Part shown: positions 21,683-41,252 of the stretch, one piece after another
Layout: every line of letters begins with the position of its first letter
Numbering within the stretch: position 1 is the stretch's first letter
NCBI GenBank assembly: GCA_041655595.1
Contig: JBBAFB010000001.1
Location: forward strand, 2,168-66,167
DNA length: 64,000 nucleotides
DNA from: Bacillota bacterium
GTDB lineage: Bacteria; Bacillota; DULZ01
Reading direction: 5' to 3'
The notes under the pieces: generated by a model
What the model was told of the DNA's origin: nothing
Database searches by the model: none
Seen by the model: the letters and a program-made list of their open reading frames with translations, nothing else
Program-made: the position numbers and the translations under genes

Positions 21683-22426
21683 TTAATAACAAACCCAATT
21701 AGCTAAAGCGGCCACCAACCTATCATCATCACCGATGTCTCCCTCTAACCATTTGATTCGGATGGTTAACCTATTAGTTTTAGCCACGTTTAGACTAAAA
21801 TTAAAGGGGTATTCCGAAGGCTTAACCTCCTTTGCTTCATAAATTGGCAACCCGTCTGCCAAGATAGTTAAGCTGTAGCCGGCCCTGCTGTTTCTAGTTT
21901 CATCGTCAACACCCAGGTAACCCTCCAGCCGGGTAAACTCGCCTTTTAAATCAACTACAGCTTCAGCTACTTTCACCCCTTCATTTTCAATATCCCTTTC
22001 CCCGGGAGCTAATTCCACTATTAAACCTCTTTCAAATTGCCTGCCTGCAATGATAATCTTTCTGCTTTGCAGATTATAAAAGGGGCCCACATTTCTTAAA
22101 ACGGGCAAATCTTCCAAGTAGCTGGGGTTGTAGGCAGCTCCTTCATCGAATCTTGAATCACCCCTTAAATACACAGTCTTTGTTGAAGGGTCCCACTCCA
22201 CATCGTAACCCAGTGCCTCTGACATAGCTCGAACCGGCACCATTACAGAACCATTTTCCAATTGAAAAGGCTCTACTGCGGAGGAAAGAAGCTTGCCATT
22301 GATGATTATTTTAAAATCCTGATAGATGGCCACAACATTTTCCCGTCTATAGACCTCTTTGGCGGTAACCGCCGTGCCGATAAGCAGAAGGATTGTTAAT
22401 ATACTAATTAAAGACATTTTGCGCAT
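21683..22426 (-). CDS. Secreted copper-amine-oxidase N-terminal-domain (stalk-like) protein
   Basis: 247 aa. Signal peptide MRKMSLISILTILLLIGTAVTA, then the GSVMVPVRAMSEALGYDVEWD motif of Cu_amine_oxidN1 domains, which are abundant in Peptococcaceae-type Clostridia. Confidence 0.6.
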   Translation of the reverse strand: MRKMSLISILTILLLIGTAVTAKEVYRRENVVAIYQDFKIIINGKLLSSAVEPFQLENGSVMVPVRAMSEALGYDVEWDPSTKTVYLRGDSRFDEGAAYNPSYLEDLPVLRNVGPFYNLQSRKIIIAGRQFERGLIVELAPGERDIENEGVKVAEAVVDLKGEFTRLEGYLGVDDETRNSRAGYSLTILADGLPIYEAKEVKPSEYPFNFSLNVAKTNRLTIRIKWLEGDIGDDDRLVAALANWVCY

Positions 22427-24652: not shown

Positions 24653-25777
24653 TCACAAAACCACAATTTCTAACCAATCCACTAGTTTAAATGTAAGCTG
24701 AGGGAGTTTCACAAGATTTTCCCCCGGCAAGGTATGAAATTGAAAGTTAAATGTTCCTGCAGGCAAGTCAACCGAGCCGGCTTGCAGCCCACCAAAAAGA
24801 TCCAAACCCCTACCACCTTCCTGTACCGTAAAACTTTTTTTGGCAATTAACCCCGCCCACAGTCTGTTTACCTGAGAATCAACAAGAATATTTTTAGCTA
24901 TTATCAGCAAAGCATCTTCACGAGAATCCTGCGGAGTTAAATTCTCGATTAGGGTAATAGCTCCCTCGGAAACTATAGCGATTTTACCATTATAACTCTC
25001 AGTGATACTATCTGCCGTTACAACTAAATCCCCTGCGGAAAAATATATGCCGGAATTTAATTTGCTTACATCAACAGTTGTCTCGGTTAATACCTCGTGC
25101 TTATTGTTTAGGTACCAGTCAAAATCTAAAGCAGGCACTTTGTTGCCATTTATTCCCTGGTAATATGGAAAACAGTTTTCACTTTTCTGCCAAACACCTT
25201 TGCAAATGATCTCCTTTGCAGCGACTAAGAGACCATTAATTATAGTGTCCCCATTAACTACTATCGATTCAGAGGCCGACAAAGAGCCGCCAAAAACCGC
25301 ATCGTTTAAGATGACTTGGCCATCAACCTCCACTCGCCCTTCCAAAGAGCTTGAAGGCGGGAAAATCAGATTGTCTGAAACTATAAGGCCTCCTTTAATA
25401 TTTAAACTTGTATACGATTTTAAATGCAAGAAATCCACCGTCACTGCATTATTAAAAGGTTGTCTTTCCTTCTTTAGATCCACTCTGATCCTTCTGTTTA
25501 TTCCATCCACCTCCCCTTGAGATTCAATTCTGACCTGGGGGTTATTTCCTTTGTTAGTTACAGTTATTACTTTTATTTTACCCGGCTCGAAGTCTATATT
25601 CTTATAGCTGCCCTCCCAAGCCGGATTAGCCTTTAATTGGTTTACAGCTATTTGAATCCCCGCCTCAGCTACATAGAGTGCCTGCACCGCTTTTGCTTGA
25701 TTTTGAGCAATTTTGCTTTCGGTAAAGGCTAATTCAAAGCTAAAAATTCCAAGAGTCAGAACAACTGCAAAAAACAA
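24653..25777 (-). CDS. GspK/PilX-like large pseudopilin
   Basis: 374 aa. Hydrophobic N-terminal helix with the conserved LAFTESKIAQNQAKAVQALYVAEAGIQ segment typical of GspK-like minor pseudopilins. Confidence 0.5.
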   Translation of the reverse strand: MFFAVVLTLGIFSFELAFTESKIAQNQAKAVQALYVAEAGIQIAVNQLKANPAWEGSYKNIDFEPGKIKVITVTNKGNNPQVRIESQGEVDGINRRIRVDLKKERQPFNNAVTVDFLHLKSYTSLNIKGGLIVSDNLIFPPSSSLEGRVEVDGQVILNDAVFGGSLSASESIVVNGDTIINGLLVAAKEIICKGVWQKSENCFPYYQGINGNKVPALDFDWYLNNKHEVLTETTVDVSKLNSGIYFSAGDLVVTADSITESYNGKIAIVSEGAITLIENLTPQDSREDALLIIAKNILVDSQVNRLWAGLIAKKSFTVQEGGRGLDLFGGLQAGSVDLPAGTFNFQFHTLPGENLVKLPQLTFKLVDWLEIVVL

Positions 25778-25845
25778 GATTGTCTGAAAGAAAAAAAAGC
25801 CTTCCTGCTCCGTTAATTTTTTCTTTACCCCATCCTGATCAACCC

Positions 25846-28562: not shown

Positions 28563-29993
28563 TTATTTAATTGATTTTTCGCGGATTGGTGATTTAAATT
28601 CTAATACTTTTTTATTTCCGTTTTCCTCATTTCCCGGTGCCGAACCCGATGTGGAAGCAATTTTGAGAGGCCTTGGTTTATTTTCATCCCAATCCGGAAA
28701 AAAGTCTCTAATATGCAGTATGTTTAATTTTGTACCGCCTCCCAAGTATTGAAACCCATCCTTTGCTATTACTACGCCACTGAATTCGTTAAAATGTCCT
28801 AAGGTCACTCTACCTTCCAGTGCAATCAACAAACCCTTCATGGATAAGTTTCCCCAGGACGGATCTACCCTAATGTCGCCACTTTTACTAATTATTATAA
28901 CTTCCTTAGGGGAATTATTACCCGGAAAACTCCACGTGTAATCGCCTTCAGCTAAAATTCTCACAACATTAGAAAGCGGCGGGGTATCTGAACTGCTTGC
29001 CGCATGGTAGTAGTCACTCCAGTCAAACTTGTCATTTAAAGCGAGATTAATTGTGGGCACTATAAAATCGGGGTAACGATTTTCATCATCTAATTTTTGG
29101 GCTTTACTACTTATATTACCACTAGCATTACCTAAGTAATAAACATTTTTGTTAATTGTATAGTAGTTGCCAAAATGGACATTGCCTTTAACATACACAT
29201 CTCCATTAAATTTGGGGCCCGTCACTTCGAGATCACCATTTATTATCACATCACCGTAAACCTCTCTATCTCCACCTGTAAAACTCAGATCACCATTAAC
29301 ATAAATGTATCCCGGATGGCTTTTGCTACCTAAAGAAGTAGAACCACCTCCCATGTTAACGGAACCATCAATATATATTTTTGTTACATTAATTGCAGCC
29401 CCTTGATTGAATCTACCTGAATCTAAGCCTCCGAATACAATAGTCCCATTTTCTCCGTTAATTGCATTTCCTGCAAAACTTACTGCCGGGTTTTCCATGT
29501 AAAGAAATATATCATCCATATCATCCCCATTAGTCTCGCCACCCCTGTTTATAGTGATAACAGCGCCCACTTTTCTAGTACTATTGCCAATTTTACCGGT
29601 GGATTCGATTGCGTAATCCCTAGTATCTCCACTAGAGTCACCAACTTGAGCTAGTGTAATAATTGCCAGGGGTTCTTCTTTATTATACAGTCCAAAATCT
29701 TCGCAGATAAGGGTTCCATCCTGAAAAATGTTTTCCACACGATGGAAAAACAGATCTGCATCTACATGATTACTATCCTCGGTAATTACCTTGTAAATTT
29801 CATCCACTGCATAATGGATTCCGGATTCCGCTATATAGTAGGTACTTTGGCTTTGGCTGTCCAGTTTAGTTTGTTTTAAATTTGAACTTGTGGCGTTAAT
29901 GATGGCAATACCTAAAATGGAGACCAAAGCAAGGCCCAGCAATGTTGCGACTAATGCAAAACCTGTTTGGTTTTTTAGTATTTTTTTCACCAC
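28563..29993 (-). CDS. PilX-N-domain protein with C-terminal G/N/D-rich beta-helix-like repeats (candidate pilus tip protein or adhesin)
   Basis: 476 aa. N-terminus GFALVATLLGLALVSILGIAIINATSSNLKQTK (PilX_N-like hydrophobic helix), then about 12 short repeats of the type NGDLSFTGG / GDVIINGDLEVTG / NGDVYVKGNVHFGN. Confidence 0.5.
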   Translation of the reverse strand: MVKKILKNQTGFALVATLLGLALVSILGIAIINATSSNLKQTKLDSQSQSTYYIAESGIHYAVDEIYKVITEDSNHVDADLFFHRVENIFQDGTLICEDFGLYNKEEPLAIITLAQVGDSSGDTRDYAIESTGKIGNSTRKVGAVITINRGGETNGDDMDDIFLYMENPAVSFAGNAINGENGTIVFGGLDSGRFNQGAAINVTKIYIDGSVNMGGGSTSLGSKSHPGYIYVNGDLSFTGGDREVYGDVIINGDLEVTGPKFNGDVYVKGNVHFGNYYTINKNVYYLGNASGNISSKAQKLDDENRYPDFIVPTINLALNDKFDWSDYYHAASSSDTPPLSNVVRILAEGDYTWSFPGNNSPKEVIIISKSGDIRVDPSWGNLSMKGLLIALEGRVTLGHFNEFSGVVIAKDGFQYLGGGTKLNILHIRDFFPDWDENKPRPLKIASTSGSAPGNEENGNKKVLEFKSPIREKSIK

Positions 29994-30004
29994 AACACCA
30001 CCTC

Positions 30005-30412
30005 CTAACGAATCTTTAAAACTGATGCGAGTCTATATTCTTCACCGTTTCCATCCTTAACCAAGATTTCTACTTTAATATCCCTACTTGTTACTGCTTC
30101 AACAAATAATTGATAATTGCCTTCAACAGCTATCTCATTTCCTTTTAATAATTTTCCTTCTTCCGATCTATAAACAATATCATCCAAGATAAGGGTGTTC
30201 CCTTCTGTATTAACAATATCTGCCTTTCTTATTTCCCTTGTTAAATAGTCCATCGCAGTTCTGGCATCTATAATAATATTTGTTTTTTCACTTTGAAAAC
30301 CAAAATATTTAAAGGAATTAGAAATAGGGGTAAAGATAACTGCCAGCACTACCCCTAATATTGCTAAAACAACCAGTAACTCTACTAAAGCAAAACCTCT
30401 AGCGGTCTTCAT
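30005..30412 (-). CDS. Prepilin-type minor pilin
   Basis: 135 aa. MKTARGFALVELLVVLAILGVVLAV class-III signal peptide (RG/FALVE). Confidence 0.65.
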   Translation of the reverse strand: MKTARGFALVELLVVLAILGVVLAVIFTPISNSFKYFGFQSEKTNIIIDARTAMDYLTREIRKADIVNTEGNTLILDDIVYRSEEGKLLKGNEIAVEGNYQLFVEAVTSRDIKVEILVKDGNGEEYRLASVLKIR

Positions 30413-30845
30413 TTAAAATGCCCCTTCCCTTCCAGGAATACAAGGCCTCGTATTGTACATCCAGTTTGCTCTTACTGCTGTCCTCATAAATTTTTGCTAT
30501 TACTCTGATTAGATTGTTATCCCCAACTTCTGCAAAACTGAGTTCAAGAAATTTGTGATCCCCATATTCGCGACCGAAGATATTTGGCCCTAGCTTCTCA
30601 TAACCTTCTTTTATTAATTCACCCTCTAAACCTTCAAAATTTATTTCCCTGCTTATACCATAAGCAAACTCCATGACATCCTTTCCAAGGTAGGTAGCAT
30701 CCAAGGTTTCCTCAGATTTTTGATTAGTTCTTGCCGCCAGGGTGAATAAAGGGAAAAAGGCGACTGCAATCATGACAATTATGGCTAAAGCAATCAGCAA
30801 TTCTATCAAAGTGAGTCCTAAACTATCAGCTTTAAAACATTTCAC
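30399..30845 (-). CDS. Prepilin-type minor pilin
   Basis: 148 aa. SLGLTLIELLIALAIIVMIAVAFFPL prepilin N-terminus. Confidence 0.6.
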   Translation of the reverse strand: MKCFKADSLGLTLIELLIALAIIVMIAVAFFPLFTLAARTNQKSEETLDATYLGKDVMEFAYGISREINFEGLEGELIKEGYEKLGPNIFGREYGDHKFLELSFAEVGDNNLIRVIAKIYEDSSKSKLDVQYEALYSWKGRGILNEDR

Positions 30846-30890: not shown

Positions 30891-32585
30891 TTAAACGATT
30901 ACTCTTAGCAACTCATCCAGTGAAACTAAACCTTTAGAAACCGCCAAAAGCCCTTGTTGCCTGAAGGTAACCATTCCTTCTTCTACTGCAACTTTTTTGA
31001 TCTCCCCGGCGGAACGCCTTTCTATAGCCATTTGAGCAACCCTGTCGGAGACTACTAATATTTCAAAAACCCCGAGCCTTCCTTGGTAACCGGTATAACC
31101 GCATTGAATACAGCCTTCGGATCTGTAGAGCCGGGTTTGTTTCTCCCCTTCCTCTACGGGGAAATCAGGTACAGTTTTCAGCAAGTCTCCGTGAGTTATG
31201 GTATAAGGCTCCTTACAATGGGGGCAAAGAATTCGGACTAATCTTTGGGCAATGACACAGGCTAGGGAAGAAGCGGTCAGAAATGGTTCGATGCCCATGT
31301 CATTAAGTCTGGTAATGGCCCCCGCGGAATCATTGGTGTGTAGGCTCGATAAAACCAAATGGCCTGTTAAGGAGGATTCAATTGCTATCCTTGCTGTTTC
31401 CTGGTCTCTAATTTCACCTACCATTACTATATCCGGATCATTTCTTAAAATTGAACGTAAGCCCGTCGGAAAAGTCAAGCCGGCCTGGATATTAACCTGC
31501 ATTTGATTAACTCCATCCAGCCTTCTTTCAACCGGGTCCTCAATGGTGATAATATGCTTGTCTTTTTGATTCAAAGTATTTAGAATAGCATATAGGGTAG
31601 TGCTTTTGCCGCTACCCGTGGGCCCTGTTGCCAGAATCATTCCATAGGGTAGCTTGATGACATTTTCCAACTTTGTATAATCATCACCCGAAAAACCCAG
31701 ATCCATAATGCTGAGCTGTTTAGCACCGCGATCCAAAATGCGCAAGGTCAATTTTTCTCCGTAAGCGGTGGGCAAAGAGGCCACACGTATATCTACCACA
31801 TTACCATCAACCTTTAAGGTGGCACGGCCATCTTGGGGAATTCTTCTTTCCGCAATATCCATATTAGCCATAACTTTAATTCTAGAAATCAAGGCTGGCA
31901 AAAGATGCCTGGGAGGAGTCATCACTTCATGAAGTACGCCATCTATCCGAAAACGAACCCTAAGACCTCTCTCCAAGGGCTCTATATGAATATCACTGGC
32001 CCTATCTGTGATTCCTTGCCCGATTATCATATTGGCTAGCTTTACGGCGGGTTTATCCCCCATTTCGGCAAAAGAAATTAAATCATTATCAAGTTCCTCA
32101 TCCGGAATATCTTCAATTTCCAATTGTGGCCGGATGTATTGTTCTATGAATAACATCAGTTCTGTGTCAGTTACCAAGACGGGTTTAATTTCCATACCCG
32201 ATAAAAGCCTCAGATCCTCCAAGGCAATTAAATTTCGTGGCTGGTTCATTGCTACCACTAAAGCCCCGTCCTCGAAGGCAACGGGTAGCGCTTGATAACG
32301 CTTTATTACAGCGGGGTCCAAAATACTAACAGCTTTTTTATCGACAGGAAAACTTTCTAAGGTAAGAAAAGGCACTCCCGACTGAGCAGCTATCGCCCTT
32401 GCCACCGATGCTTCCGTAGTAAAGCCCATTTCAACCAGCACTTGTCCTAAAAACAAGTCTTTTCCCTTACTTTGCTCTTGCTTAATTAAGGCAGCCTCCA
32501 GTTGGGCCATTGTAATTTCACCGGTCTCAACTAAAAAGCGTCCGGTATAATTGTGCTGTAGCTTATCCTTCAATGAGCAGTACAC
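30891..32585 (-). CDS. pilB: Type IV pilus assembly ATPase PilB/GspE (module 2)
   Basis: 564 aa. N-terminal T2SE_Nter domain, Walker A GPTGSGKSTTL, Asp box, tetracysteine CPHC...CIQC zinc motif. Confidence 0.85.
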   Translation of the reverse strand: MYCSLKDKLQHNYTGRFLVETGEITMAQLEAALIKQEQSKGKDLFLGQVLVEMGFTTEASVARAIAAQSGVPFLTLESFPVDKKAVSILDPAVIKRYQALPVAFEDGALVVAMNQPRNLIALEDLRLLSGMEIKPVLVTDTELMLFIEQYIRPQLEIEDIPDEELDNDLISFAEMGDKPAVKLANMIIGQGITDRASDIHIEPLERGLRVRFRIDGVLHEVMTPPRHLLPALISRIKVMANMDIAERRIPQDGRATLKVDGNVVDIRVASLPTAYGEKLTLRILDRGAKQLSIMDLGFSGDDYTKLENVIKLPYGMILATGPTGSGKSTTLYAILNTLNQKDKHIITIEDPVERRLDGVNQMQVNIQAGLTFPTGLRSILRNDPDIVMVGEIRDQETARIAIESSLTGHLVLSSLHTNDSAGAITRLNDMGIEPFLTASSLACVIAQRLVRILCPHCKEPYTITHGDLLKTVPDFPVEEGEKQTRLYRSEGCIQCGYTGYQGRLGVFEILVVSDRVAQMAIERRSAGEIKKVAVEEGMVTFRQQGLLAVSKGLVSLDELLRVIV

Positions 32586-32590
32586 CCCCC

Positions 32591-33130
32591 CTAATCAATA
32601 TAATAAGCAGTTGCATTTAAATCCGCTTTTATTATGCCCTCCCCCTCAGCTAATTTTTGGTTAGTGATGGAGATACTTTGTAAGGTCGTTAAATGGGGCT
32701 GGTCATAGAGATTACGAATAAATTTTAACAAACCTAAATAGTCCCCTTCAAAAACCACCCTTAGGGGCAACTGATAATAATTAGAGCCTTTCAAGGTGTC
32801 AAAAAAACGAATTTCAGATACTCGGCCCCCCGTTCCCAAAGCAGAATCTTGAACAGCGATGATTAAATCTTGTTCAGAAAGATTTTCGGGCAGAAGTTTT
32901 GTTAAAATATCAGACCGATCAATTAAATCCGGCACCCGTTCCTTCAAAAACAATAAACGAGTCACCCTTCCTTCCAAAATTGATATTTCTTGCTCCGTAA
33001 GTACGATATCGGTTCTCAATTCATCAAGGTACCGAAATTGCTGATAAAATTTAAATAATGACAGGACAACTAGGGTAACAATTACCAACAAAATGACTAT
33101 ATTTTGTCTCTTTATACTTTCAAAATCCAT
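32591..33130 (-). CDS. pilO: Type IV pilus assembly protein PilO (module 1)
   Basis: 179 aa. N-terminal TM (IVILLVIVTLVVLSLF), coiled coil, C-domain. Directly after pilN. Confidence 0.55.
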   Translation of the reverse strand: MDFESIKRQNIVILLVIVTLVVLSLFKFYQQFRYLDELRTDIVLTEQEISILEGRVTRLLFLKERVPDLIDRSDILTKLLPENLSEQDLIIAVQDSALGTGGRVSEIRFFDTLKGSNYYQLPLRVVFEGDYLGLLKFIRNLYDQPHLTTLQSISITNQKLAEGEGIIKADLNATAYYID

Positions 33131-33153
33131 CTGTTACACCCCTAAGTCAAATC

Positions 33154-33708
33154 CTAATTTCTTTTAGAAAACACTAAGTTGATTTCAAATTGGGTTTCCA
33201 TGTTTACACTGTCAGTGGAAAGATAACGACAGCGTAAATCGGAGACCCCCGGTAGTTGCTCTAAACCAGTTAAGTAGCCGGCGACCGTATTTTTATTATT
33301 TGCCCTACCCCTGATTCTAACTTCGCCGACTCGGTCCTTTTGGGAACTGTTGGCATTTAAATCGGTAAGCGTAATTTCTTGAGGTGTTAGTCGTCCAAAC
33401 TCGGCCAAAAACTCAAACCAATTCATTTCGCCTTCCTTCGCTGCTACTAAAATTCCACTCTTTTTTTCAACCTGCCCATAAATGTTTTCATAGGGTGCCA
33501 ATAATTTTATCTGTTCATTTAAGGTTTGCCGATAGGCTAGGGAGCCCTCCAATTGGTTTTGTAAAATGCTGTTGTTTAATAGAAGAAAACCATAAATCAG
33601 CAAAAAAGCAACTAAAATTACCGCGCCTGATAAAAGAAGAATCCTTTGCCACCGTTTAAAGGCTGTGCGTAATCGGTACTCCCTTGGAAGCAAACTAATT
33701 GATATCAA
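33154..33708 (-). CDS. pilN: Type IV pilus assembly protein PilN (module 1)
   Basis: 184 aa. MISISLLPREYR PilN motif, then TM. Confidence 0.65.
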   Translation of the reverse strand: MISISLLPREYRLRTAFKRWQRILLLSGAVILVAFLLIYGFLLLNNSILQNQLEGSLAYRQTLNEQIKLLAPYENIYGQVEKKSGILVAAKEGEMNWFEFLAEFGRLTPQEITLTDLNANSSQKDRVGEVRIRGRANNKNTVAGYLTGLEQLPGVSDLRCRYLSTDSVNMETQFEINLVFSKRN

Positions 33709-33714
33709 TTTTTA

Positions 33715-34662
33715 TCACTCCCATCCCCTGCAAGCCAAACATGAAGCCAAACTGTATTCGCTGGAAACAGCCTTTAAATCACCAACATAATTTAGCATTT
33801 CTGCCGGCCTAACTACATCAATCATTAAACCGATTTCCTGCTTAAATTTATCTGACAAACTTTTAGCAATTGGCTCTATACCGCTTAATAATATTTTTTC
33901 CACGTTCTTGACACCGCGACTAGATTGGTAAAAGCCTATAGTGGATCTAATATTTCTGTTCAATTCCTCAACGATCTTTTCACTGTGAATAAAATCTTTC
34001 TTTACCCCGTCCTGCCAATACAGGGGCATTGTCCGTGCCAAACGTGGGAGTAAATTATCTGCTACGAGCATATTACCAAAACCCAGGCCGATGTTTAAAA
34101 TAGCAACTGCACTTTTTTCTCCGATCTTTTTTAACAATCTCAACAAGGTTAAGTTAAGAACCTCTATTTCAAGGGGGTTTAATTTTGCTTTTTCTAAAAC
34201 CCATAAAAAGTCCAGCAGCATCTCCTTGTTACCGGCAACCAAAATTAGTTCCAACATGGTCTTTTCGCCATCCTTCCTGCTACCGATAATGCTGTAATCC
34301 AATTCTACGGATTCAAGCGGTACAGGCAGGTGTTCCTGCGCTTGAAAACGCACTAGGGAATCCACCCGGTTTAAAGGAACATGGGGAAAGCTGGCAAAGC
34401 GAATCAAAACATCTTGGTTTGAGATGCCAATCACAACATTACGGCTTCGGAAGTCTCCTTTTTGCCACAAAGCCTTTAAGCCCTGGACCACCAGGTCCCG
34501 ATTGGTTATCAGTCCCTCCCGCATCCCCCCCCGGGGAAGGGTAACCTCCGCAAATGAGGCAAGGGACAATTGTTTGTTTCTCTTATATAATTCAACTCCC
34601 CGAATAACCTCCGTGTCAAATTCCAGACCAACAACGCTTTTGCCCTTTAAAACACGCCTCAT
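33715..34662 (-). CDS. pilM: Type IV pilus assembly protein PilM (module 1)
   Basis: 315 aa actin-like ATPase fold. Precedes pilN by 7 nt. Confidence 0.7.
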   Translation of the reverse strand: MRRVLKGKSVVGLEFDTEVIRGVELYKRNKQLSLASFAEVTLPRGGMREGLITNRDLVVQGLKALWQKGDFRSRNVVIGISNQDVLIRFASFPHVPLNRVDSLVRFQAQEHLPVPLESVELDYSIIGSRKDGEKTMLELILVAGNKEMLLDFLWVLEKAKLNPLEIEVLNLTLLRLLKKIGEKSAVAILNIGLGFGNMLVADNLLPRLARTMPLYWQDGVKKDFIHSEKIVEELNRNIRSTIGFYQSSRGVKNVEKILLSGIEPIAKSLSDKFKQEIGLMIDVVRPAEMLNYVGDLKAVSSEYSLASCLACRGWE

Positions 34663-34678
34663 ACTCCCACCTCTTATC

Positions 34679-35392
34679 TTAACTTCGCAAATAAACAGCT
34701 AATTGATCTAGGGCCCTTTTTAGCAACCGCGAAACTTGCCTTTGATTTGTGCCGATTTCTGAAGCAATTTTATTTTGAGTTAACTCCTGAAAAAAATTCA
34801 TATAAATGATTTTTTGTTGTAAACCCGACAATTTGCTGATTGCCTCCTTGAGAAGCAGTTGATCTTCAATAGGCAACTTAAAACTTTCGTGATATAAGTT
34901 TTTTATTTGTGAAACATCAACCTCTTCCAAGGTAATAGTACCTGCTAACATGGCCTCTACGATACCCTCTTCTTTAATATTCATAGCCTCGGCAACCTCA
35001 CTTAAATTAGGTTCCCTCTGCAAAGTTTGCCGCAAACTATCAGTGACAGCTAAAATTTGAGTTTTCAACTTATTCAGACCCGGAGGTAAATCAAAGCTGA
35101 CTTCCAACTGCAGTTCCCTTTGTATTTCTCCAATAATATAATAAGTTGCATAGGTTGCAAACAGGACACCCCTAGCTGGATCATAATTTTTTAAGGCTTT
35201 TAAAACCCCCTCATATCCTGCTTGGGTCAAATCCTGCCAGGAAGCAGTTTTAACATACCTGTTTGCATAGTGGTAGACTAAGCCGGTGGCCGCATCCACA
35301 ATCTCATTAACCAAACCCTCGTGGGGATTATAATGGTACTGCAAAACTAAGGCTTCTAATCTTTGGTTTTTTCTATCAGCCATTGCAGCCAC
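34679..35392 (-). CDS. Sigma-70 family (group 3, SigB/F/G/FliA-like) RNA polymerase sigma factor embedded in the pilus operon
   Basis: 237 aa. Region 2: YANRY...DLTQAGYEGVLKALKNYDPARGVLFATYATYYIIGEIQREL. Region 4 HTH: QNKIASEIGTNQRQVSRLLKRALDQL. Lies between pilC1 and pilM1 on the same strand with short gaps. Confidence 0.7.
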   Translation of the reverse strand: MAAMADRKNQRLEALVLQYHYNPHEGLVNEIVDAATGLVYHYANRYVKTASWQDLTQAGYEGVLKALKNYDPARGVLFATYATYYIIGEIQRELQLEVSFDLPPGLNKLKTQILAVTDSLRQTLQREPNLSEVAEAMNIKEEGIVEAMLAGTITLEEVDVSQIKNLYHESFKLPIEDQLLLKEAISKLSGLQQKIIYMNFFQELTQNKIASEIGTNQRQVSRLLKRALDQLAVYLRS

Positions 35393-35406: not shown

Positions 35407-36618
35407 TTAGATTCCTGATTGCACTACGGCATTAAAAATAGGCAGATATAAAGAAATAACCATTAATCCAACGACTAGCCCTATGCCAACCATTAACATC
35501 GGTTCCAACATCGCCGATAAGCCCTTGGTAATGATGGTAACTTCTTCTTCAAAGAACTCAGAAACTTTATTCAACATTTCCGAAAGAGTACCAGATTGCT
35601 CTCCAACTGCAACCATTTGCACAACCATCGGCGGAAACAAATTGCTTTCTTTTAAAGGCTCGGCCAGGCCTGCCCCCTCTTCAATCTTTTCTTTGGCCGC
35701 TGCCAAGGCATTAACTATAAGCTGGTTGCCTGTGGCCTTCCCTGAAACATCCAAAGCCTGTAGGATTGGAATTCCGCCATTTAATAAGGTTGCAAGGGTC
35801 CTGGTAAATCTGGCGGTACTGGCTTTCTGTAATAAAGATCCAAAAACCGGCAACCTGAATTTTAATTTGTCCAGCCAAAGAGTGCCGGCAACGGATGCAG
35901 ATAAATATTTTATACCGCCAAACAAACCGCCTGCAATTAAAATCCAAAAATACCAGCTTCCCCTTAAGGAATTTGAAGCAGCCAAAACCATTTTAGTAGG
36001 TAAAGGCAGCTCCGTTCCCGGCGGGAACATCTTTACAAAAACAGGTACTATGAATACAAGCATGGCGATGATCATTAAAAAGGCAAATCCGCCGATCATA
36101 CTGGGATAGAAGGTAGCGGAACGAATATTATCCCGTAAAGTTTTATCCTTTTGTAATTGCTCGGAAAGATGTACTAAACTAGTATCCAATGTCCCCCCCA
36201 ACTCTCCTGCCTTGACCATTCCGGTAAATAAGCTGGGAAAAATCTTGGATTGTTCTTCCAGGGCCTCCCCAAAACTCATTCCCGCCTCCACATTAATTGC
36301 CACTGCCTCAACCACTTTTTTAAAACGAAGGTTGACCGTTTGGTCCTCCAAAGCAAAGAGACATTGGGTTAGGGGAATGCCTGCCTGTAGCATAGAAGCT
36401 AATTGGCGACTAAAAAGGCTGATTTCCCCTAAAGTGACCTTCTTTTCTTTTTTAAAAAAACTCAAACTTGCAATGGTTGTCCTTTTTTCCCTTATATCAA
36501 TAATGAAATAGCCCATATCCTTTAAGTGGGTTATTGCTCGGTTAAGATCCCCCGCCTTTAATTGGCCCACAGAAATTCGGCCTTGGTTGTCCAGTATTTC
36601 ATAAGAGAAAGTTCTCAT
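35407..36618 (-). CDS. pilC: Type IV pilus inner-membrane platform protein PilC (module 1)
   Basis: 403 aa. Two T2SSF repeats and TM helices. Confidence 0.8.
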   Translation of the reverse strand: MRTFSYEILDNQGRISVGQLKAGDLNRAITHLKDMGYFIIDIREKRTTIASLSFFKKEKKVTLGEISLFSRQLASMLQAGIPLTQCLFALEDQTVNLRFKKVVEAVAINVEAGMSFGEALEEQSKIFPSLFTGMVKAGELGGTLDTSLVHLSEQLQKDKTLRDNIRSATFYPSMIGGFAFLMIIAMLVFIVPVFVKMFPPGTELPLPTKMVLAASNSLRGSWYFWILIAGGLFGGIKYLSASVAGTLWLDKLKFRLPVFGSLLQKASTARFTRTLATLLNGGIPILQALDVSGKATGNQLIVNALAAAKEKIEEGAGLAEPLKESNLFPPMVVQMVAVGEQSGTLSEMLNKVSEFFEEEVTIITKGLSAMLEPMLMVGIGLVVGLMVISLYLPIFNAVVQSGI

Positions 36619-37826
36619 TTTGCCTCGTCCTTCTTTTTATCAAAACTTGCCACCAGCTCTTGCAACATTTTAATCCGATCCGGTGTTTCCTCTGCCCACA
36701 AAATATAGTGGGGATTGGCCGAGTCTCCAGACAAGTTTTCTGAGATATGCATACTTGTTGAAATAACAGGAGACATTTCCGTTAAAATAGTTCTTAAGGC
36801 TTTTAACCTTTCCATAGCATAACTACCGGAGGCTGAAGTTATGGTAGCTTTAATTTTTTCTCTGGCAACATCAATGGCCTTCAAGCTGATGTAAATCTGC
36901 GGTTCCAACTCTGGAGGGCAAATTACAATAATTTCCCTACTTAATTCCGGAAAATTAAAGGCGAGCAACTCTAACCCGTCGTAACCGAAGGAATCCATCC
37001 TGGTAACCGCATCTTTTGCCACTAAATGCTCAAATCTGTAAATAAAAACGGTCTTATTTCTCCCCTCCAACCGATCAAGCTCCATTGCAACTCGCTGAAG
37101 CTGACTCCAGCTTTCAATGATGGCTTCATCAAAAACCAACAACCTGTTGCCAATGGTTACGTATTTGTTTAAAGGAATACCTGTTTCTTTAATCAGCTCC
37201 ACCAAGCGACTTGGCTCAACTACATAGGTTTTTAATTCTTTAAAAGCGAAGTTAATTATTTCACCATCATCTAAATAAAAATTTTCTACGATATCCACCG
37301 CTGCAATTAATTCCTTAATTTTAATTAAATCATCCGGAGTGCCTTGAACCCAAATAGAACGCGGATTTGATTCCAGCACAAAACTTTTTACAGGGATTCC
37401 CAAGGTGTTAATCAAGGTTTGCAATTGATTTCCTCGAATATATATAAAATCAAATCTTGTTAAGGTAGCCGTTGTAAAACCGACATCCCGCAATTTTTGT
37501 TCATTACCCACCACCAATATTTTTCCATCTTTAATGTAGCTTAGGCCCTCATTTTTAAGAAGTAGATCCAGGGCCTCCATGGGACTGACATTCTCCACCG
37601 AAAAAGTTACCTTGACCGGTTTTTCAATTAAAACAATATTGGTATTAGTTTTAATAGCCAATGCGGATAAAACGTCTCTTAAATCCGCTTCTCTGACATC
37701 CAAGGAAATGATCTCTTCCCGGGCACTGACACCGACTGTGCCCGTACTAAAAGCCGGAAGCAGCAAGCCGATAAAAACCAAACAGATTATGTAAACCTTT
37801 TTACTGTTTTTCATTCTGCAACCCAC
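36615..37826 (-). CDS. Secretin N-domain-only protein (STN/N0 plus at least two Secretin_N repeats; no secretin pore domain)
   Basis: 403 aa. Signal peptide. ISLDVREADLRDVLSALAIKTNTNIVL...VKVTFSVENVSPMEALDLLLKNEGLSY matches the secretin N0/STN consensus. Later SIWVQGTPDDLIKIKELIAAVD and NRLLVFDEAIIESWSQLQRVAMELD resemble Secretin_N (N1/N2) repeats. The C-terminal ~150 aa show no secretin core. Confidence 0.55.
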   Translation of the reverse strand: MGCRMKNSKKVYIICLVFIGLLLPAFSTGTVGVSAREEIISLDVREADLRDVLSALAIKTNTNIVLIEKPVKVTFSVENVSPMEALDLLLKNEGLSYIKDGKILVVGNEQKLRDVGFTTATLTRFDFIYIRGNQLQTLINTLGIPVKSFVLESNPRSIWVQGTPDDLIKIKELIAAVDIVENFYLDDGEIINFAFKELKTYVVEPSRLVELIKETGIPLNKYVTIGNRLLVFDEAIIESWSQLQRVAMELDRLEGRNKTVFIYRFEHLVAKDAVTRMDSFGYDGLELLAFNFPELSREIIVICPPELEPQIYISLKAIDVAREKIKATITSASGSYAMERLKALRTILTEMSPVISTSMHISENLSGDSANPHYILWAEETPDRIKMLQELVASFDKKKDEAK

Positions 37827-37834
37827 CTGTTTTG

Positions 37835-38326
37835 CTATTTTCTTGGAGCAAACGCTATCGTTATTTCCCTAGTTTCATTATTTAGAACAATATAATCCCT
37901 GTTGATCTCTGTTAACTCCCATGTGTCAGCTATCTTATCGCCTATCGCCAAAATATAACTGACTTGTTGCGCTTTTATAATTGCCAAATCCTGTTCACCC
38001 TTAATCACTCCTAAAAGCTCAATAGGTGCACTAAAAGGATCAACAACTGCCTCTAAATAATCTTGGGAGGGAGTCAATTGCCCGCCTTCCTGCCTTTCTA
38101 GCTGAGGGAGAATTTGGGCAAGTTCATCTTGCAGTTGCTGCTCCGTTAAACCTGGAATACCGGGTATGACAGGTGTTTGGGTTGAGCCTTGCAAAAAAAA
38201 CCTAATACCGAAAGCAACTAAAATAAGGGTTAATAAAACTCCTATTAAAATATACAACCTAAGTTTTCCCTTTCCCGCCTCTTCCTTTGAAAAACCAGGC
38301 TGGGACCAATTAAATGGTAGTTTCAT
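37835..38326 (-). CDS. PilP/GspC-HR-like single-TM protein
   Basis: 163 aa from the ATG at 38326 (GGAG RBS). The ORF-track start at 38383 is a TTG inside a terminator. TM LYILIGVLLTLILVAFGI, Pro/Gln-rich linker, C-terminal beta-domain DPFSAPIELLGVIKGEQ...YILAIGDKIADTWELTEINRDYIVL with PilP-like pattern. Confidence 0.5.
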   Translation of the reverse strand: MKLPFNWSQPGFSKEEAGKGKLRLYILIGVLLTLILVAFGIRFFLQGSTQTPVIPGIPGLTEQQLQDELAQILPQLERQEGGQLTPSQDYLEAVVDPFSAPIELLGVIKGEQDLAIIKAQQVSYILAIGDKIADTWELTEINRDYIVLNNETREITIAFAPRK

Positions 38327-38370
38327 TTTCGGCTCCGCCAATCTTTTACCCCCTTTAATTGATAATTTGC

Positions 38371-38406
38371 AATAAAAAACCAAGCTGATTTAGCCTGGTA
38401 GCTTGG
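38371..38406 (-). terminator. Rho-independent terminator downstream of pilT
   Basis: Minus-strand hairpin CCAAGCT-(13 nt)-AGCTTGG followed by TTTTTTATT. Confidence 0.5.
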
Positions 38407-38613
38407 CGATCCTAGCCCCTACGGCGGGACTTTAGACCCATAGCTTTGCAGTCATCATCTTTCAATGACTTTGCCTTTAACTGCTAAAATTCTTATATCT
38501 TGCATGATATCTAAATCATAGCAATACCTATGTGCTGTCCTATTTTTCTCTTAACTTTAAATTTCGACAGAAAGAGTCCATTCCCTGCAAATATTATTAA
38601 TATTTATTAATTA

Positions 38614-39945: not shown

Positions 39946-39972
39946 AAACCGGTTGGAAGGGACCAACCGGTT
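39940..39972 (-). terminator. Strong rho-independent terminator of the major pilin gene
   Basis: Perfect 10-bp stem AACCGGTTGG / CCAACCGGTT with 6-nt loop, followed on the minus strand by TTTTTTCT. Confidence 0.75.
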
Positions 39973-40061: not shown

Positions 40062-40424
40062 CTAGGCTTCCGGTTCGCCTAATGTTACTTTGTAATTATC
40101 ACCATCCTTGGTAATAACATACTCTCTTTCATCATCAGATCCATATGGGTTTTTAGGTTCCTCCATTAAATATTTTGGTACTAAACCATAAAAATCGGTA
40201 CCTTTTCCAGGAAGGGTCCCTTCTGTAGCTTCATATAGAGAGATTGCACCTTTTATGGTTCTGATATTGGCATCGTTTGCGACATTTGCTGCTTTTTCGG
40301 TTGCGTTATTGTAGACCGGGATAGCTATTGCTACCAGGACACCTATAATACCTACTACTACCATTAGTTCAACCAAAGTAAAACCTTTTTTGTTTTTCAG
40401 TTGTCTTTGGATGTAAGAAATCAT
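40062..40424 (-). CDS. pilA: Major type IV pilin (PilA-like, class III signal peptide)
   Basis: 120 aa. MISYIQRQLKNKKG/FTLVELMVVVGIIGVLVAIAIP has a consensus prepilin peptidase site (G-F-T-L-x-E). Strong RBS AAGGGAGGA. Followed by its own strong terminator. Confidence 0.85.
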   Translation of the reverse strand: MISYIQRQLKNKKGFTLVELMVVVGIIGVLVAIAIPVYNNATEKAANVANDANIRTIKGAISLYEATEGTLPGKGTDFYGLVPKYLMEEPKNPYGSDDEREYVITKDGDNYKVTLGEPEA

Positions 40425-40508: not shown

Positions 40509-41252
40509 TTATTTTAAAAAATTTAAATAAAAACCAATAATTTGGTGTCCCCATAAAGAAGAAAGGGTTATGCCCAAGGCTAAAAAGGGGCCAAAGGGGA
40601 TGGGAGTTTTTTTAGTTTTTCGTCCTGTCGCTAACAAAACGGCCCCGACTAGGCCACCTGTTACAAAGGCTATAAATAGTGCCAATAGGGTGCCCAACTG
40701 ACCCAGAGAAAAACCGGCCGCAAACATGAGTTTTATATCCCCACCGCCCATACCCCCTTTACTTAAGATGGCTATTGCCAATAATAAACCACCGCCGATA
40801 ACAGCCCCCAAAACCGCCTGCCACCAAGTTTGCTCGGGCAAGAAAATTTGCCATAGAATGGACCAGCCCAAAAGGCTGATCACCAGGGAATCCGGAATAA
40901 GCTGCAGCTCTAAATCAATCATCGTAATCACAATTAAAAGGCTTAAGATAATTAAATATTTAATTAACAAAAACCGAAAGTCTACAGTTAAAAAGGCAAT
41001 TAAAAAAACAAAGCCGGTCAAGAGTTCCACCAAGGGGTAACGAAGTCGGATAAGTTCATTACAATAGCGGCATTTGCCCCTTAACAATAAAAAACTCAAA
41101 ACAGGAATTAAATCCAAAGGTTCCAGGCCGGTATGGCAATGGGGACAATGGGAAGTGCCGGAAACAATATTTTTATTTTTAGGAATACGAAAAATACAAA
41201 CATTTAAAAAAGAACCGATCACCAATCCGAGGATAAAAATTAGTATTGCCAA
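40509..41252 (-). CDS. pilD: Prepilin peptidase (A24 family) PilD
   Basis: 247 aa. CPHCHTGLEPLDLIPVLSFLLLRGKCRYC zinc-binding tetracysteine N-domain and a polytopic peptidase domain with catalytic Asp residues. Confidence 0.85.
   Translation of the reverse strand: MAILIFILGLVIGSFLNVCIFRIPKNKNIVSGTSHCPHCHTGLEPLDLIPVLSFLLLRGKCRYCNELIRLRYPLVELLTGFVFLIAFLTVDFRFLLIKYLIILSLLIVITMIDLELQLIPDSLVISLLGWSILWQIFLPEQTWWQAVLGAVIGGGLLLAIAILSKGGMGGGDIKLMFAAGFSLGQLGTLLALFIAFVTGGLVGAVLLATGRKTKKTPIPFGPFLALGITLSSLWGHQIIGFYLNFLK

What the first reader, a model, noticed from the sequence alone, without database searches (positions are those of the whole stretch)
28563..29993. PilX-N-terminal pilin-like anchor fused to a G/N/D-rich beta-helix repeat domain
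The 476-aa protein starts with a pseudopilin or PilX-type hydrophobic helix, so it should be incorporated at or on the filament. The C-terminal roughly 300 aa consist of short repeats (NGD-x-x-V/F-x-G, GDVIINGDLEVTG, GNVHFGN), typical of right-handed beta-helix or bactofilin-like folds used by adhesins. A pilus minor subunit carrying a beta-helical adhesin or polymerisation domain would be the functional tip of the module-2 fibre. I am not aware of this fusion in a described family.
Basis: partly seen in the sequence, partly recalled or inferred. Interest (0 to 1): 0.55.

Follow-up and report, generated by a model that had tools for sequence, protein, structure and literature searches.

The report
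Pilus-tip minor pilin with beta-helix head
This gene encodes a type IV pilus minor subunit of the kind that caps the fibre, carrying a large beta-helix module that probably acts as the adhesive tip; the design is real, but it is already known from Thermus ComZ and cyanobacterial PilX and closely resembles the cellulose-binding tapirins.

Summary
ORF 28563..29993 (-) encodes a 476-aa protein. It has a class III (prepilin) leader (MVKKILKNQTG|F, no Glu+5) and a PilX_N helix scoring above Pfam's cut-off. A small pilin head follows, then a ~280-aa G/N/D-rich beta-solenoid that AlphaFold2 models confidently (pLDDT 86).

The gene closes a triplet of two small minor pilins plus this protein, inside a type IV pilus operon of a spore-forming Bacillota bacterium. 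Relatives keep the same gene order. A c-di-GMP-I riboswitch sits at the head of the gene string.

Most likely this is the GspK/PilX-class tip subunit that primes assembly and displays an adhesive beta-helix.

ComZ, cyanobacterial PilX, "modular pilins" and Pfam DUF7305/pAdhesive_15 cover this design. A bactofilin-like polymerisation role is not supported.

Two by-products:
- The same C-terminal module is fused to archaeal pilin N-termini in Methanomicrobiales.
- Tapirin N-termini match this family's PilX-like helix (hhalign 94%), so tapirins may themselves be tip pilins.

The parts
28563..29993 (-). Gene for the 476-aa PilX/GspK-class modular minor pilin (the finding)
   Evidence: ORF. Homologues. 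AlphaFold2 model with pLDDT 86.
29961..29993 (-). Class III (prepilin) leader, aa 1-11 (MVKKILKNQTG), with the predicted cleavage site after G11
   Evidence: G11 is invariant in 17 homologues. Phe is at +1 and Ala at +5, so there is no Glu+5, as in GspK/PilX. A prepilin peptidase gene is in the window. Cleavage is inferred, not shown.
29817..29963 (-). Hydrophobic alpha-1 helix, PilX_N domain (aa 11-59), including the conserved YYIAESG motif
   Evidence: Pfam PF14341 at 28.9 bits against a cut-off of 25.5. The N-terminal helix alone matches NCBIfam GspK at E 0.0019. AlphaFold2 helix spans aa 10-72.
29544..29816 (-). Small pilin head: end of alpha-1, a short helix and four beta-strands (aa 60-150)
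28674..29522 (-). Beta-solenoid module (aa 158-440): about 10 rungs of 18-20 residues, interrupted by a long connecting segment (aa ~300-342) that carries the invariant Trp324
28566..28607 (-). Conserved C-terminal strand motif (aa 463-476, VLEFKSPIREKSIK), following a variable Gly/Ser/Glu-rich linker (aa 445-462)
   Evidence: An IKSPIxEE-type tail is conserved in all PilX_N-type homologues and absent from the Glu+5-type and archaeal relatives. AlphaFold2 predicts strands at aa 463-466 and 471-473, with pLDDT around 78. Its return to the pilin sheet, as in ComZ, is inferred only.
30005..30412 (-). Small minor pilin (135 aa), immediately upstream; probable partner in the tip complex
   Evidence: N_methyl at 29.6 bits. 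Weak GspI, GspH and ComGE matches. The same triplet order occurs in L047 and L048.
30399..30845 (-). Small minor pilin (148 aa), first gene of the triplet
   Evidence: N_methyl at 22.7 bits. Weak ComGE, GspI and PilV matches.
30891..32585 (-). PilB-type assembly ATPase of the same gene string
   Evidence: T2SSE at 450 bits plus MshEN.
32591..34662 (-). PilO, PilN and PilM alignment-complex genes
   Evidence: Pfam PilO, PilN and PilM_2.
35407..36618 (-). PilC-type platform protein
   Evidence: T2SSF at 192 bits.
40509..41252 (-). Prepilin peptidase (PilD), the enzyme expected to process the leader
   Evidence: A24_N_bact plus Peptidase_A24.
40062..40424 (-). Candidate major pilin (120 aa), followed by a strong terminator at 39947..39972
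   Evidence: N_methyl at 36.2 bits. Terminator.
38394..38485 (-). c-di-GMP-I riboswitch aptamer at the head of the co-directional gene string that ends with the target gene
   Evidence: Rfam RF01051 at 65.8 bits against a gathering score of 35, full length. A terminator-like hairpin at 38379..38399 overlaps its 3' end.

Best explanation
The gene encodes the GspK/PilX-class minor pilin of a type IV pilus in a monoderm, spore-forming Bacillota bacterium.

Shown: a prepilin-type leader with Gly at -1 and no Glu at +5, a PilX_N alpha-1 helix, a small GspK-like pilin head, and a rigid ~280-residue beta-solenoid of the tapirin/ComZ/ice-binding-like type.

Inferred: after cleavage by the locus's PilD, the protein assembles through its hydrophobic helix with the two small minor pilins encoded just upstream, forming a GspI/J/K-like priming complex. 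This subunit would enter the fibre first, so it ends up at the distal tip. There the solenoid is too bulky to fit in the shaft; it caps the fibre and presents a binding surface. The ligand is unknown. A polysaccharide or another cell surface is most likely, by analogy with tapirins and because the operon has c-di-GMP control. DNA, as for ComZ, is the alternative.
For: - N-terminus: PilX_N is above the cut-off. G11 is invariant, and Glu+5 is absent in the query and its PilX_N-type homologues P0002-P0010 in the alignment, while relatives with an N_methyl leader carry Glu+5. In a rough regex classing and NJ tree of 159 domain sequences, the query falls in a 17-member clade of sequences without Glu+5.
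- Context: the gene closes the string PilC, sigma factor, PilMNO, PilB, two N_methyl minor pilins, target, with gaps of 5-45 nt and no convincing internal terminator. PilD, a major pilin and PilT lie upstream.
- Synteny: relatives at 35-38% identity show the same order, two small pilins followed by PilX_N-solenoid, inside pilus clusters.
- Precedents: ComZ was argued on steric grounds to sit only at the tip and it binds PilA2. Cyanobacterial PilX solenoids are proposed as tip plugs. C. difficile PilV/PilU/PilK are proposed as a tip complex.
- Regulation: a c-di-GMP-I riboswitch at the operon head fits a sessile or adhesive role.
Against: - Nothing here shows processing, incorporation into a fibre, tip location or any ligand.
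- No sequence-level similarity to ComZ was found. Similarity of the solenoid to tapirins is only weak (hhalign probability 25%).
- The model coordinates could not be inspected. Handedness, the fate of the C-terminal strand and the surface properties are therefore inferred.
- The module has no major pilin gene of its own; the nearest lies 10 kb upstream, beyond a terminator and the riboswitch.
- Whether the riboswitch switches the operon on or off is unresolved.
Confidence: 0.7

Rival explanations
1. It is a tip-located DNA receptor of a competence-type pilus, working like Thermus ComZ. The solenoid and pilin junction would bind extracellular DNA, and retraction would bring the DNA to the uptake machinery.
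Confidence: 0.12
2. It is purely a structural cap or plug. The solenoid would have no ligand and would replace PilY1 as the element that closes the fibre tip and primes assembly, as proposed for cyanobacterial PilX.
For: No PilY1 homologue was seen in the locus. The most conserved residues, the I/V-Y-I/V-x-G-D/N ladder and W324, look structural rather than ligand-specific.
Against: This is not exclusive of adhesion. The same module is fused to very different pilin N-termini in bacteria and archaea, often together with PKD, PA14 or GLEYA adhesin-type domains. That pattern suggests a portable binding module rather than a part fitted to one machine.
Confidence: 0.12
3. It is a membrane-anchored surface protein that is never assembled into a filament. 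The N-terminal helix would act as an uncleaved signal anchor, and the beta-helix would decorate the cell surface, which is how tapirins have been pictured.
For: Tapirins were localised over the cell surface and at the poles, and their link to the pilus is stated to be undetermined. ComZ is not predicted as a PilD substrate by PilFind. The lack of Glu+5 weakens standard pilin predictions.
Against: Gly-1 is invariant, the leader is basic and the PilX_N match is above threshold. The gene is translationally coupled to two bona fide prepilin genes. The pilin-head fold matches GspK.
Confidence: 0.05
4. It is a beta-helical enzyme, either a polysaccharide lyase or hydrolase, or a bactofilin-like self-polymerising domain, delivered by the pilus.
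Confidence: 0.02

Closest known systems
ComZ of Thermus thermophilus (PDB 6qvi; Salleh et al. 2019, PMC6561018)
   Different: No detectable sequence similarity. ComZ is from a diderm and serves natural transformation. Its solenoid is about 380 residues against about 280 here. In ComZ the solenoid is inserted before the last pilin strand; whether that holds here could not be checked.
Tapirins of Caldicellulosiruptor (PDB 4wa0, 6n2b, 6n2c; NCBIfam NF051896)
   Different: The target does not match the tapirin model NF051896. Tapirins are 640-650 aa, with a ~180-residue middle region absent here. Pfam PilX_N does not detect tapirins. Profile similarity of the solenoids is weak (probability 25%). 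Cellulose binding is untested here.
Cyanobacterial PilX homologues and HpsA (bioRxiv 10.64898/2026.02.12.705559)
   Same: PilX-class minor pilins that carry an ice-binding-like triangular beta-solenoid. They are proposed to plug the tip in organisms lacking PilY1.
   Different: They come from a different phylum and from diderms. No sequences were available here for comparison, so the relationship rests on the description only.
GspK (type II secretion) and PilX (type IVa pili)
   Different: GspK carries an alpha-helical insertion rather than a beta-solenoid. The NCBIfam GspK score is 17.8 against a cut-off of 130.
Pfam DUF7305 (PF23981) and pAdhesive_15 (PF20597, 'putative ice-binding-like adhesive domain')
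   Same: 40 of 63 and 28 of 63 family members match at E <= 0.01. Several carry these domains in precomputed annotation.
   Different: The query itself reaches only E 0.77 for pAdhesive_15 and gives no DUF7305 hit. Both families are uncharacterised.
Modular pilins of Gram-positive type IV pili (S. sanguinis PilB and PilC; C. difficile PilK)
   Same: A pilin module is fused to a bulky effector module and displayed at the tip. The minor-pilin triplet organisation is shared.
   Different: The effector modules there are vWA or lectin domains.

Membership tests
Type IV pilin / pseudopilin (class III signal peptide) | Short basic leader ending in Gly, followed by a ~20-residue hydrophobic alpha-1N helix | tested here: met
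   The sequence is MVKKILKNQTG|FALVATLLGLALVSILGIAIINA. G11 is invariant in 17 homologues. AlphaFold2 helix spans aa 10-72.
Type IV pilin / pseudopilin (class III signal peptide) | Glu at +5 of the mature protein | tested here: not met
   Ala is at +5 (FALVA). This absence is characteristic of GspK/PilX tip subunits (own knowledge). Relatives with an N_methyl-type leader do carry Glu+5.
Type IV pilin / pseudopilin (class III signal peptide) | Cleavage and N-methylation by a prepilin peptidase | not testable with these tools
   A PilD gene is present at 40509..41252. Processing itself needs an experiment.
Pfam PilX_N (PF14341) | Score above the gathering threshold | tested here: met
   28.9 bits against 25.5, aa 11-59, profile positions 2-50 of 51.
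GspK (NCBIfam NF037980) | Full-length match above cut-off, including the alpha-helical insertion domain | tested here: not met
ComZ-like pilin with beta-solenoid | Pilin fold plus a large triangular beta-solenoid in one chain | tested here: met
ComZ-like pilin with beta-solenoid | Solenoid inserted between the penultimate and last strands of the pilin sheet | tested here: inconclusive
   A conserved C-terminal strand motif follows a flexible linker, which is compatible with insertion.
ComZ-like pilin with beta-solenoid | Sequence homology to ComZ | tested here: not met
   Profile searches of the PDB with A2 and A3 did not recover 6qvi at E <= 10.
Tapirin (NCBIfam NF051896) | Match to the tapirin equivalog model (cut-off 600 bits) | tested here: not met
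   There is no tapirin hit for the target at E <= 1. Genuine tapirins score about 897 bits.
Tapirin (NCBIfam NF051896) | Beta-helix core with the tapirin fold | tested here: met
Tapirin (NCBIfam NF051896) | Binding to crystalline cellulose through an aromatic line on one face | not testable with these tools
   A conserved Tyr ladder exists (Y207, Y231, Y267, Y286). Whether it is exposed or buried under the connecting segment could not be seen.
Pfam DUF7305 / pAdhesive_15 | Domain match above threshold | tested here: inconclusive
   For the query, pAdhesive_15 gives E 0.77 (10 bits against 23.8) and DUF7305 gives no hit. Among homologues, 40 of 63 hit DUF7305 and 28 of 63 hit pAdhesive_15 at E <= 0.01. 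Membership is therefore transitive only.
Bactofilin (PF04519) | Bactofilin domain match and a self-polymerising short beta-helix | tested here: not met

The most novel reading that the evidence does not exclude
The target and the Caldicellulosiruptor tapirins may be two branches of one class: PilX/GspK-type tip pilins whose beta-helix binds insoluble polysaccharide or partner-cell surfaces. If so, tapirins are tethered to cells because they are themselves minor pilins assembled at the pilus tip. That would answer the question the tapirin papers leave open. The same portable tip module would also have been exchanged between anaerobic bacteria and Methanomicrobiales pilins, possibly serving attachment within anaerobic consortia.
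Probability: 0.25. Interest if true: 0.6.

Novelty: new member of a known kind. Interest (0 to 1): 0.35.

Why it matters
On its own the gene is an ordinary, if well-preserved, example of a modular tip pilin. It gives a Clostridia-type pilus a candidate adhesin under probable c-di-GMP control.

Its wider use is comparative. It links three literatures that do not cite one another for this point: ComZ, cyanobacterial PilX and the tapirins. It also offers a concrete, testable idea for how tapirins reach the cell surface, namely as PilD-processed tip pilins. Finally, it shows that one beta-helix module is fused to bacterial PilX-type leaders, bacterial Glu+5-type leaders and archaeal pilin leaders.

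Tried and rejected
- The AFDB Foldseek library was unavailable, so there is no survey of annotated predicted structures.
- Model coordinates are not exposed. Handedness, strand pairing of the C-terminal tail and surface aromatic or charge patterns could not be examined.
- A profile search of the word-indexed protein database with the domain alignment A3 returned only 4 hits. It did not extend the family towards ComZ or tapirins.
- The exact-sequence contig look-up for the target found nothing on record.
- The neighbouring 374-aa PilX-like paralogue has only 3 homologues. Its AlphaFold2 model was too poor to use (pLDDT 54), so no fold search was run on it.
- Profile hits to formylmethanofuran dehydrogenase subunit C (E 4e-7, domain E 0.006-0.04) and to antifreeze proteins (E 0.011) cover single rung motifs only. 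I treat them as fold-level resemblance, not family membership.
- There are no meaningful DNA tandem repeats, so recent repeat expansion is rejected.
- BLASTP of the target against a tapirin gives nothing significant.

Full report
**The observation**

A GGAGGTGG ribosome-binding site lies just upstream. The stop codon of the preceding gene is 11 nt upstream.

The N-terminus is MVKKILKNQTG|FALVATLLGLALVSILGIAIINA. It matches Pfam PilX_N above the curated cut-off (28.9 against 25.5 bits, aa 11-59). The first 60 residues also match the NCBIfam GspK model weakly (E 0.0019).

Residues 151-300 are 18% Gly, 11% Asn and 7% Asp. As sequence repeats they are weak. Autocorrelation peaks at 6, 12, 17-19 and 24 residues reach z of only 1.3-2.9, and there is no meaningful DNA-level repeat. 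They are degenerate structural rungs, and the obvious ones cover only about aa 200-295.

**Structure**

I built a 63-sequence alignment and ran AlphaFold2 on it. The model is confident, with mean pLDDT 86.2 and pTM 0.66. Its parts are:
- a long alpha-1 helix (aa 10-72);
- a short helix and four beta-strands (aa 94-149), forming the pilin head;
- about ten rungs of two or three short strands with a period of 18-20 residues (aa 162-300 and 343-430);
- a long connecting segment between the two runs of rungs (aa ~300-342) that carries the family-invariant Trp324;
- a low-confidence Gly/Ser/Glu linker (aa 445-462);
- two final short strands (aa 463-473).

Foldseek against the PDB puts the Thermus competence pilin ComZ first (6qvi, E 1.8e-4, probability 0.99), followed by tapirin C-terminal domains.

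By sequence, no solved structure is related beyond rung-level motifs. These are formylmethanofuran dehydrogenase subunit C and antifreeze or ice-binding proteins at E 0.011.

**Family and distribution**

The protein database holds about ten full-length relatives with PilX_N (34-38% identity). It also holds many proteins that share only the C-terminal 57% of the query at 31-36% identity. Most of these are Methanomicrobiales proteins with an archaeal pilin N-terminus (PF07790), often with added PKD domains. Some are bacterial proteins with a canonical Glu+5 leader.

An exhaustive phmmer search of aa 155-445 against 1.84 billion representatives finds only 167 hits at E <= 0.001. The domain lies at or near the C-terminal end in most of the hits listed.

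A genome scan found 46 loci. They come from:
- Clostridia;
- Bacillaceae;
- Syntrophaceae and Smithella;
- Verrucomicrobia;
- Marinimicrobia;
- Thermotogaceae;
- Methanomicrobiales.

Among 159 complete domain sequences, a rough motif-based classing of the N-termini gives about 65 archaeal-type, 46 bacterial with Glu+5 and 37 bacterial without. The query sits in a 17-member clade without Glu+5.

Of the 63 family members scanned, 40 hit Pfam DUF7305 and 28 hit pAdhesive_15 ('putative ice-binding-like adhesive domain') at E <= 0.01. The query itself stays below threshold. The module is therefore a divergent branch of an already catalogued but uncharacterised domain family.

**Genomic context**

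The window is chromosomal DNA of an endospore former: spoIIIAA and spoIIIAE, alaS and mltG are present.

The target closes a tight co-directional string:
1. a T2SS-C-like protein
2. a Secretin_N/STN protein
3. PilC
4. a sigma factor
5. PilM, PilN and PilO
6. PilB
7. a 148-aa minor pilin
8. a 135-aa minor pilin
9. the target

Gaps between these genes are 5-45 nt or overlaps. I see no convincing internal terminator. A full-length c-di-GMP-I riboswitch (65.8 bits) with a terminator-like hairpin sits at the head of the string.

PilT, a 120-aa major pilin followed by a strong terminator, PilD and another PilB lie upstream. Downstream, after a 136-nt gap, comes a second module with PilC, three minor pilins, a 374-aa PilX-like protein and PilM/N/O-like genes.

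Two relatives at 35-38% identity show the same order, two small prepilins followed by PilX_N-solenoid, inside their own pilus clusters. Archaeal relatives sit in small clusters of pilin-like genes.

**How it most likely works**

Shown by the data:
- a prepilin-type leader with an invariant Gly at -1;
- no Glu at +5;
- a PilX_N helix;
- a GspK-like head;
- a rigid beta-solenoid;
- a conserved position as the last gene of a minor-pilin triplet.

Inferred from established knowledge of GspI/J/K and of PilVWX priming complexes, and from ComZ: the protein is cleaved by PilD. It then nucleates a complex with the two small pilins through the hydrophobic helices. It enters the fibre first and so ends at the distal tip, where the missing Glu+5 is tolerated because no subunit sits above it. 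The solenoid is too bulky for the shaft, so it caps the fibre and offers a binding surface.

The ligand is unknown. I favour a polysaccharide or a cell surface, for three reasons:
- Tapirins are the closest fold and bind cellulose.
- The module travels with PKD, PA14 and GLEYA-type adhesin domains in relatives.
- The operon appears to be under c-di-GMP control.

DNA binding as in ComZ, or a purely structural plug as proposed for cyanobacterial PilX, remain possible.

**Comparison with what is known**

ComZ is a solved example. All cyanobacterial PilX homologues are reported to carry such a solenoid. Modular pilins are described as widespread. C. difficile PilV/PilU/PilK offers the same triplet logic.

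The protein fails the specific family tests for GspK, tapirin (NF051896) and bactofilin. It has no sequence link to ComZ. I therefore file it as a new member of the known kind 'PilX/GspK-class tip pilin with a beta-solenoid module', not as a member of any of those named families.

**A by-product on tapirins**

I used a primer fragment from a tapirin paper to scan metagenome contigs. This recovered a Caldicellulosiruptor-like locus, L052, with two tapirin genes. One is essentially identical to PDB 4wa0 (E 2e-207), and both score about 897 bits on NF051896. The first is preceded by a prepilin-type gene.

The tapirin N-terminus reads ...KKVDG|SVLIVVIIVIAVLSTILLG...ATGYGAESAAEE. It aligns with this family's leader, helix and AE(S/A)G motif at hhalign probability 94% and E 1.4e-7 over 71 columns. 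Three controls gave no N-terminal match: the window's major pilin, PilN and the paralogue alignment. The tapirin N-terminus also gives a weak ComGG match (E 0.016).

Pfam PilX_N does not detect tapirins, and profile similarity of the solenoids is weak (probability 25%). The searchable literature treats tapirins as separate from pilins and leaves their link to the pilus open. The data here suggest, but do not prove, that tapirins are themselves PilX-class tip pilins.

**Verdict**

The gene is a new member of a known kind. Interest is modest (0.35), raised slightly by the tapirin and archaeal connections.

Noticed in passing
window 38394..38485 (-), with a hairpin at 38379..38399 (-): A full-length c-di-GMP-I riboswitch (RF01051, 65.8 bits) sits directly upstream of the first gene of the pilus gene string that ends with the target. 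A terminator-like hairpin plus U-tract overlaps the aptamer's 3' end and the called TTG start of ORF 37835..38383. The segment UUUAGC upstream of the aptamer could pair with GCUAAA inside the terminator, which would make it an ON switch, but this is unverified.
   Followed up: partly
window 24653..25777 (-), and upstream to about 25833: A second PilX-like protein (374 aa) lies in the neighbouring pilus module. As called, it lacks its leader. Homologues P0225 and P0226 and the upstream in-frame translation (...KKKLTEQEG|FFFFQ) show a class III leader without Glu+5. The only ATG (25833..25831), with a well-spaced AAGGG ribosome-binding site, is out of frame by one base next to a G4 run. This suggests a 1-nt indel in the assembly, a real frameshift or a non-canonical start. 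Only 3 homologues exist. The AlphaFold2 model is poor (pLDDT 54) but shows the same helix, sheet and short-strand pattern.
   Followed up: partly
L052:1006-2937 and L052:7124-9082 (Caldicellulosiruptor-like contig Ga0073360_101): Tapirin N-termini carry a basic leader, a Gly, a ~20-residue hydrophobic helix and an AES motif. They align with the PilX_N-type N-terminus of the target's family (hhalign 94%, E 1.4e-7), with negative controls. The first tapirin gene directly follows a 282-aa prepilin-type gene. Tapirins may be PilD-processed tip pilins, which the papers I could search do not state.
   Followed up: partly
P0011-P0077; loci L010, L014-L017, L025, L050, L051: The same C-terminal beta-helix module (31-36% identity) is fused to archaeal type IV pilin N-termini (PF07790) in Methanomicrobiales, often after PKD domains. 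These genes lie next to other pilin-like genes (DUF7289, Pilin_N). Many of the bacterial and archaeal carriers are uncultured metagenome-assembled genomes. The pattern suggests exchange of a pilus module between the two domains of life.
   Followed up: partly
window 36615..37826 (-) and 37835..38383 (-): A spore-forming, presumably monoderm bacterium encodes a protein with STN and Secretin_N domains but no secretin pore domain, next to a T2SS-C-like protein, at the head of the pilus operon (sporulation genes).
   Followed up: no
window 34679..35392 (-): A sigma-70 family factor (regions 2, 3 and 4) is embedded between pilC and pilM inside the pilus operon. A relative's locus (L048) also has a sigma factor next to its PilC.
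   Followed up: no
window 21683..22426 (-): The last gene after the second pilus module encodes a protein with a Cu_amine_oxidN1 domain and an NPCBM/NEW2 glycan-binding domain. A Cu_amine_oxidN1 protein also lies near the homologous locus L047.
   Followed up: no
L049:7725-9476 (Ureibacillus acetophenoni contig): In this Bacillaceae locus the family member P0080 lies next to a second, larger (583 aa) protein with a faint DUF7305 hit and to several more prepilin genes. Some genomes therefore carry two solenoid pilins side by side, as Caldicellulosiruptor carries two tapirins.
   Followed up: no
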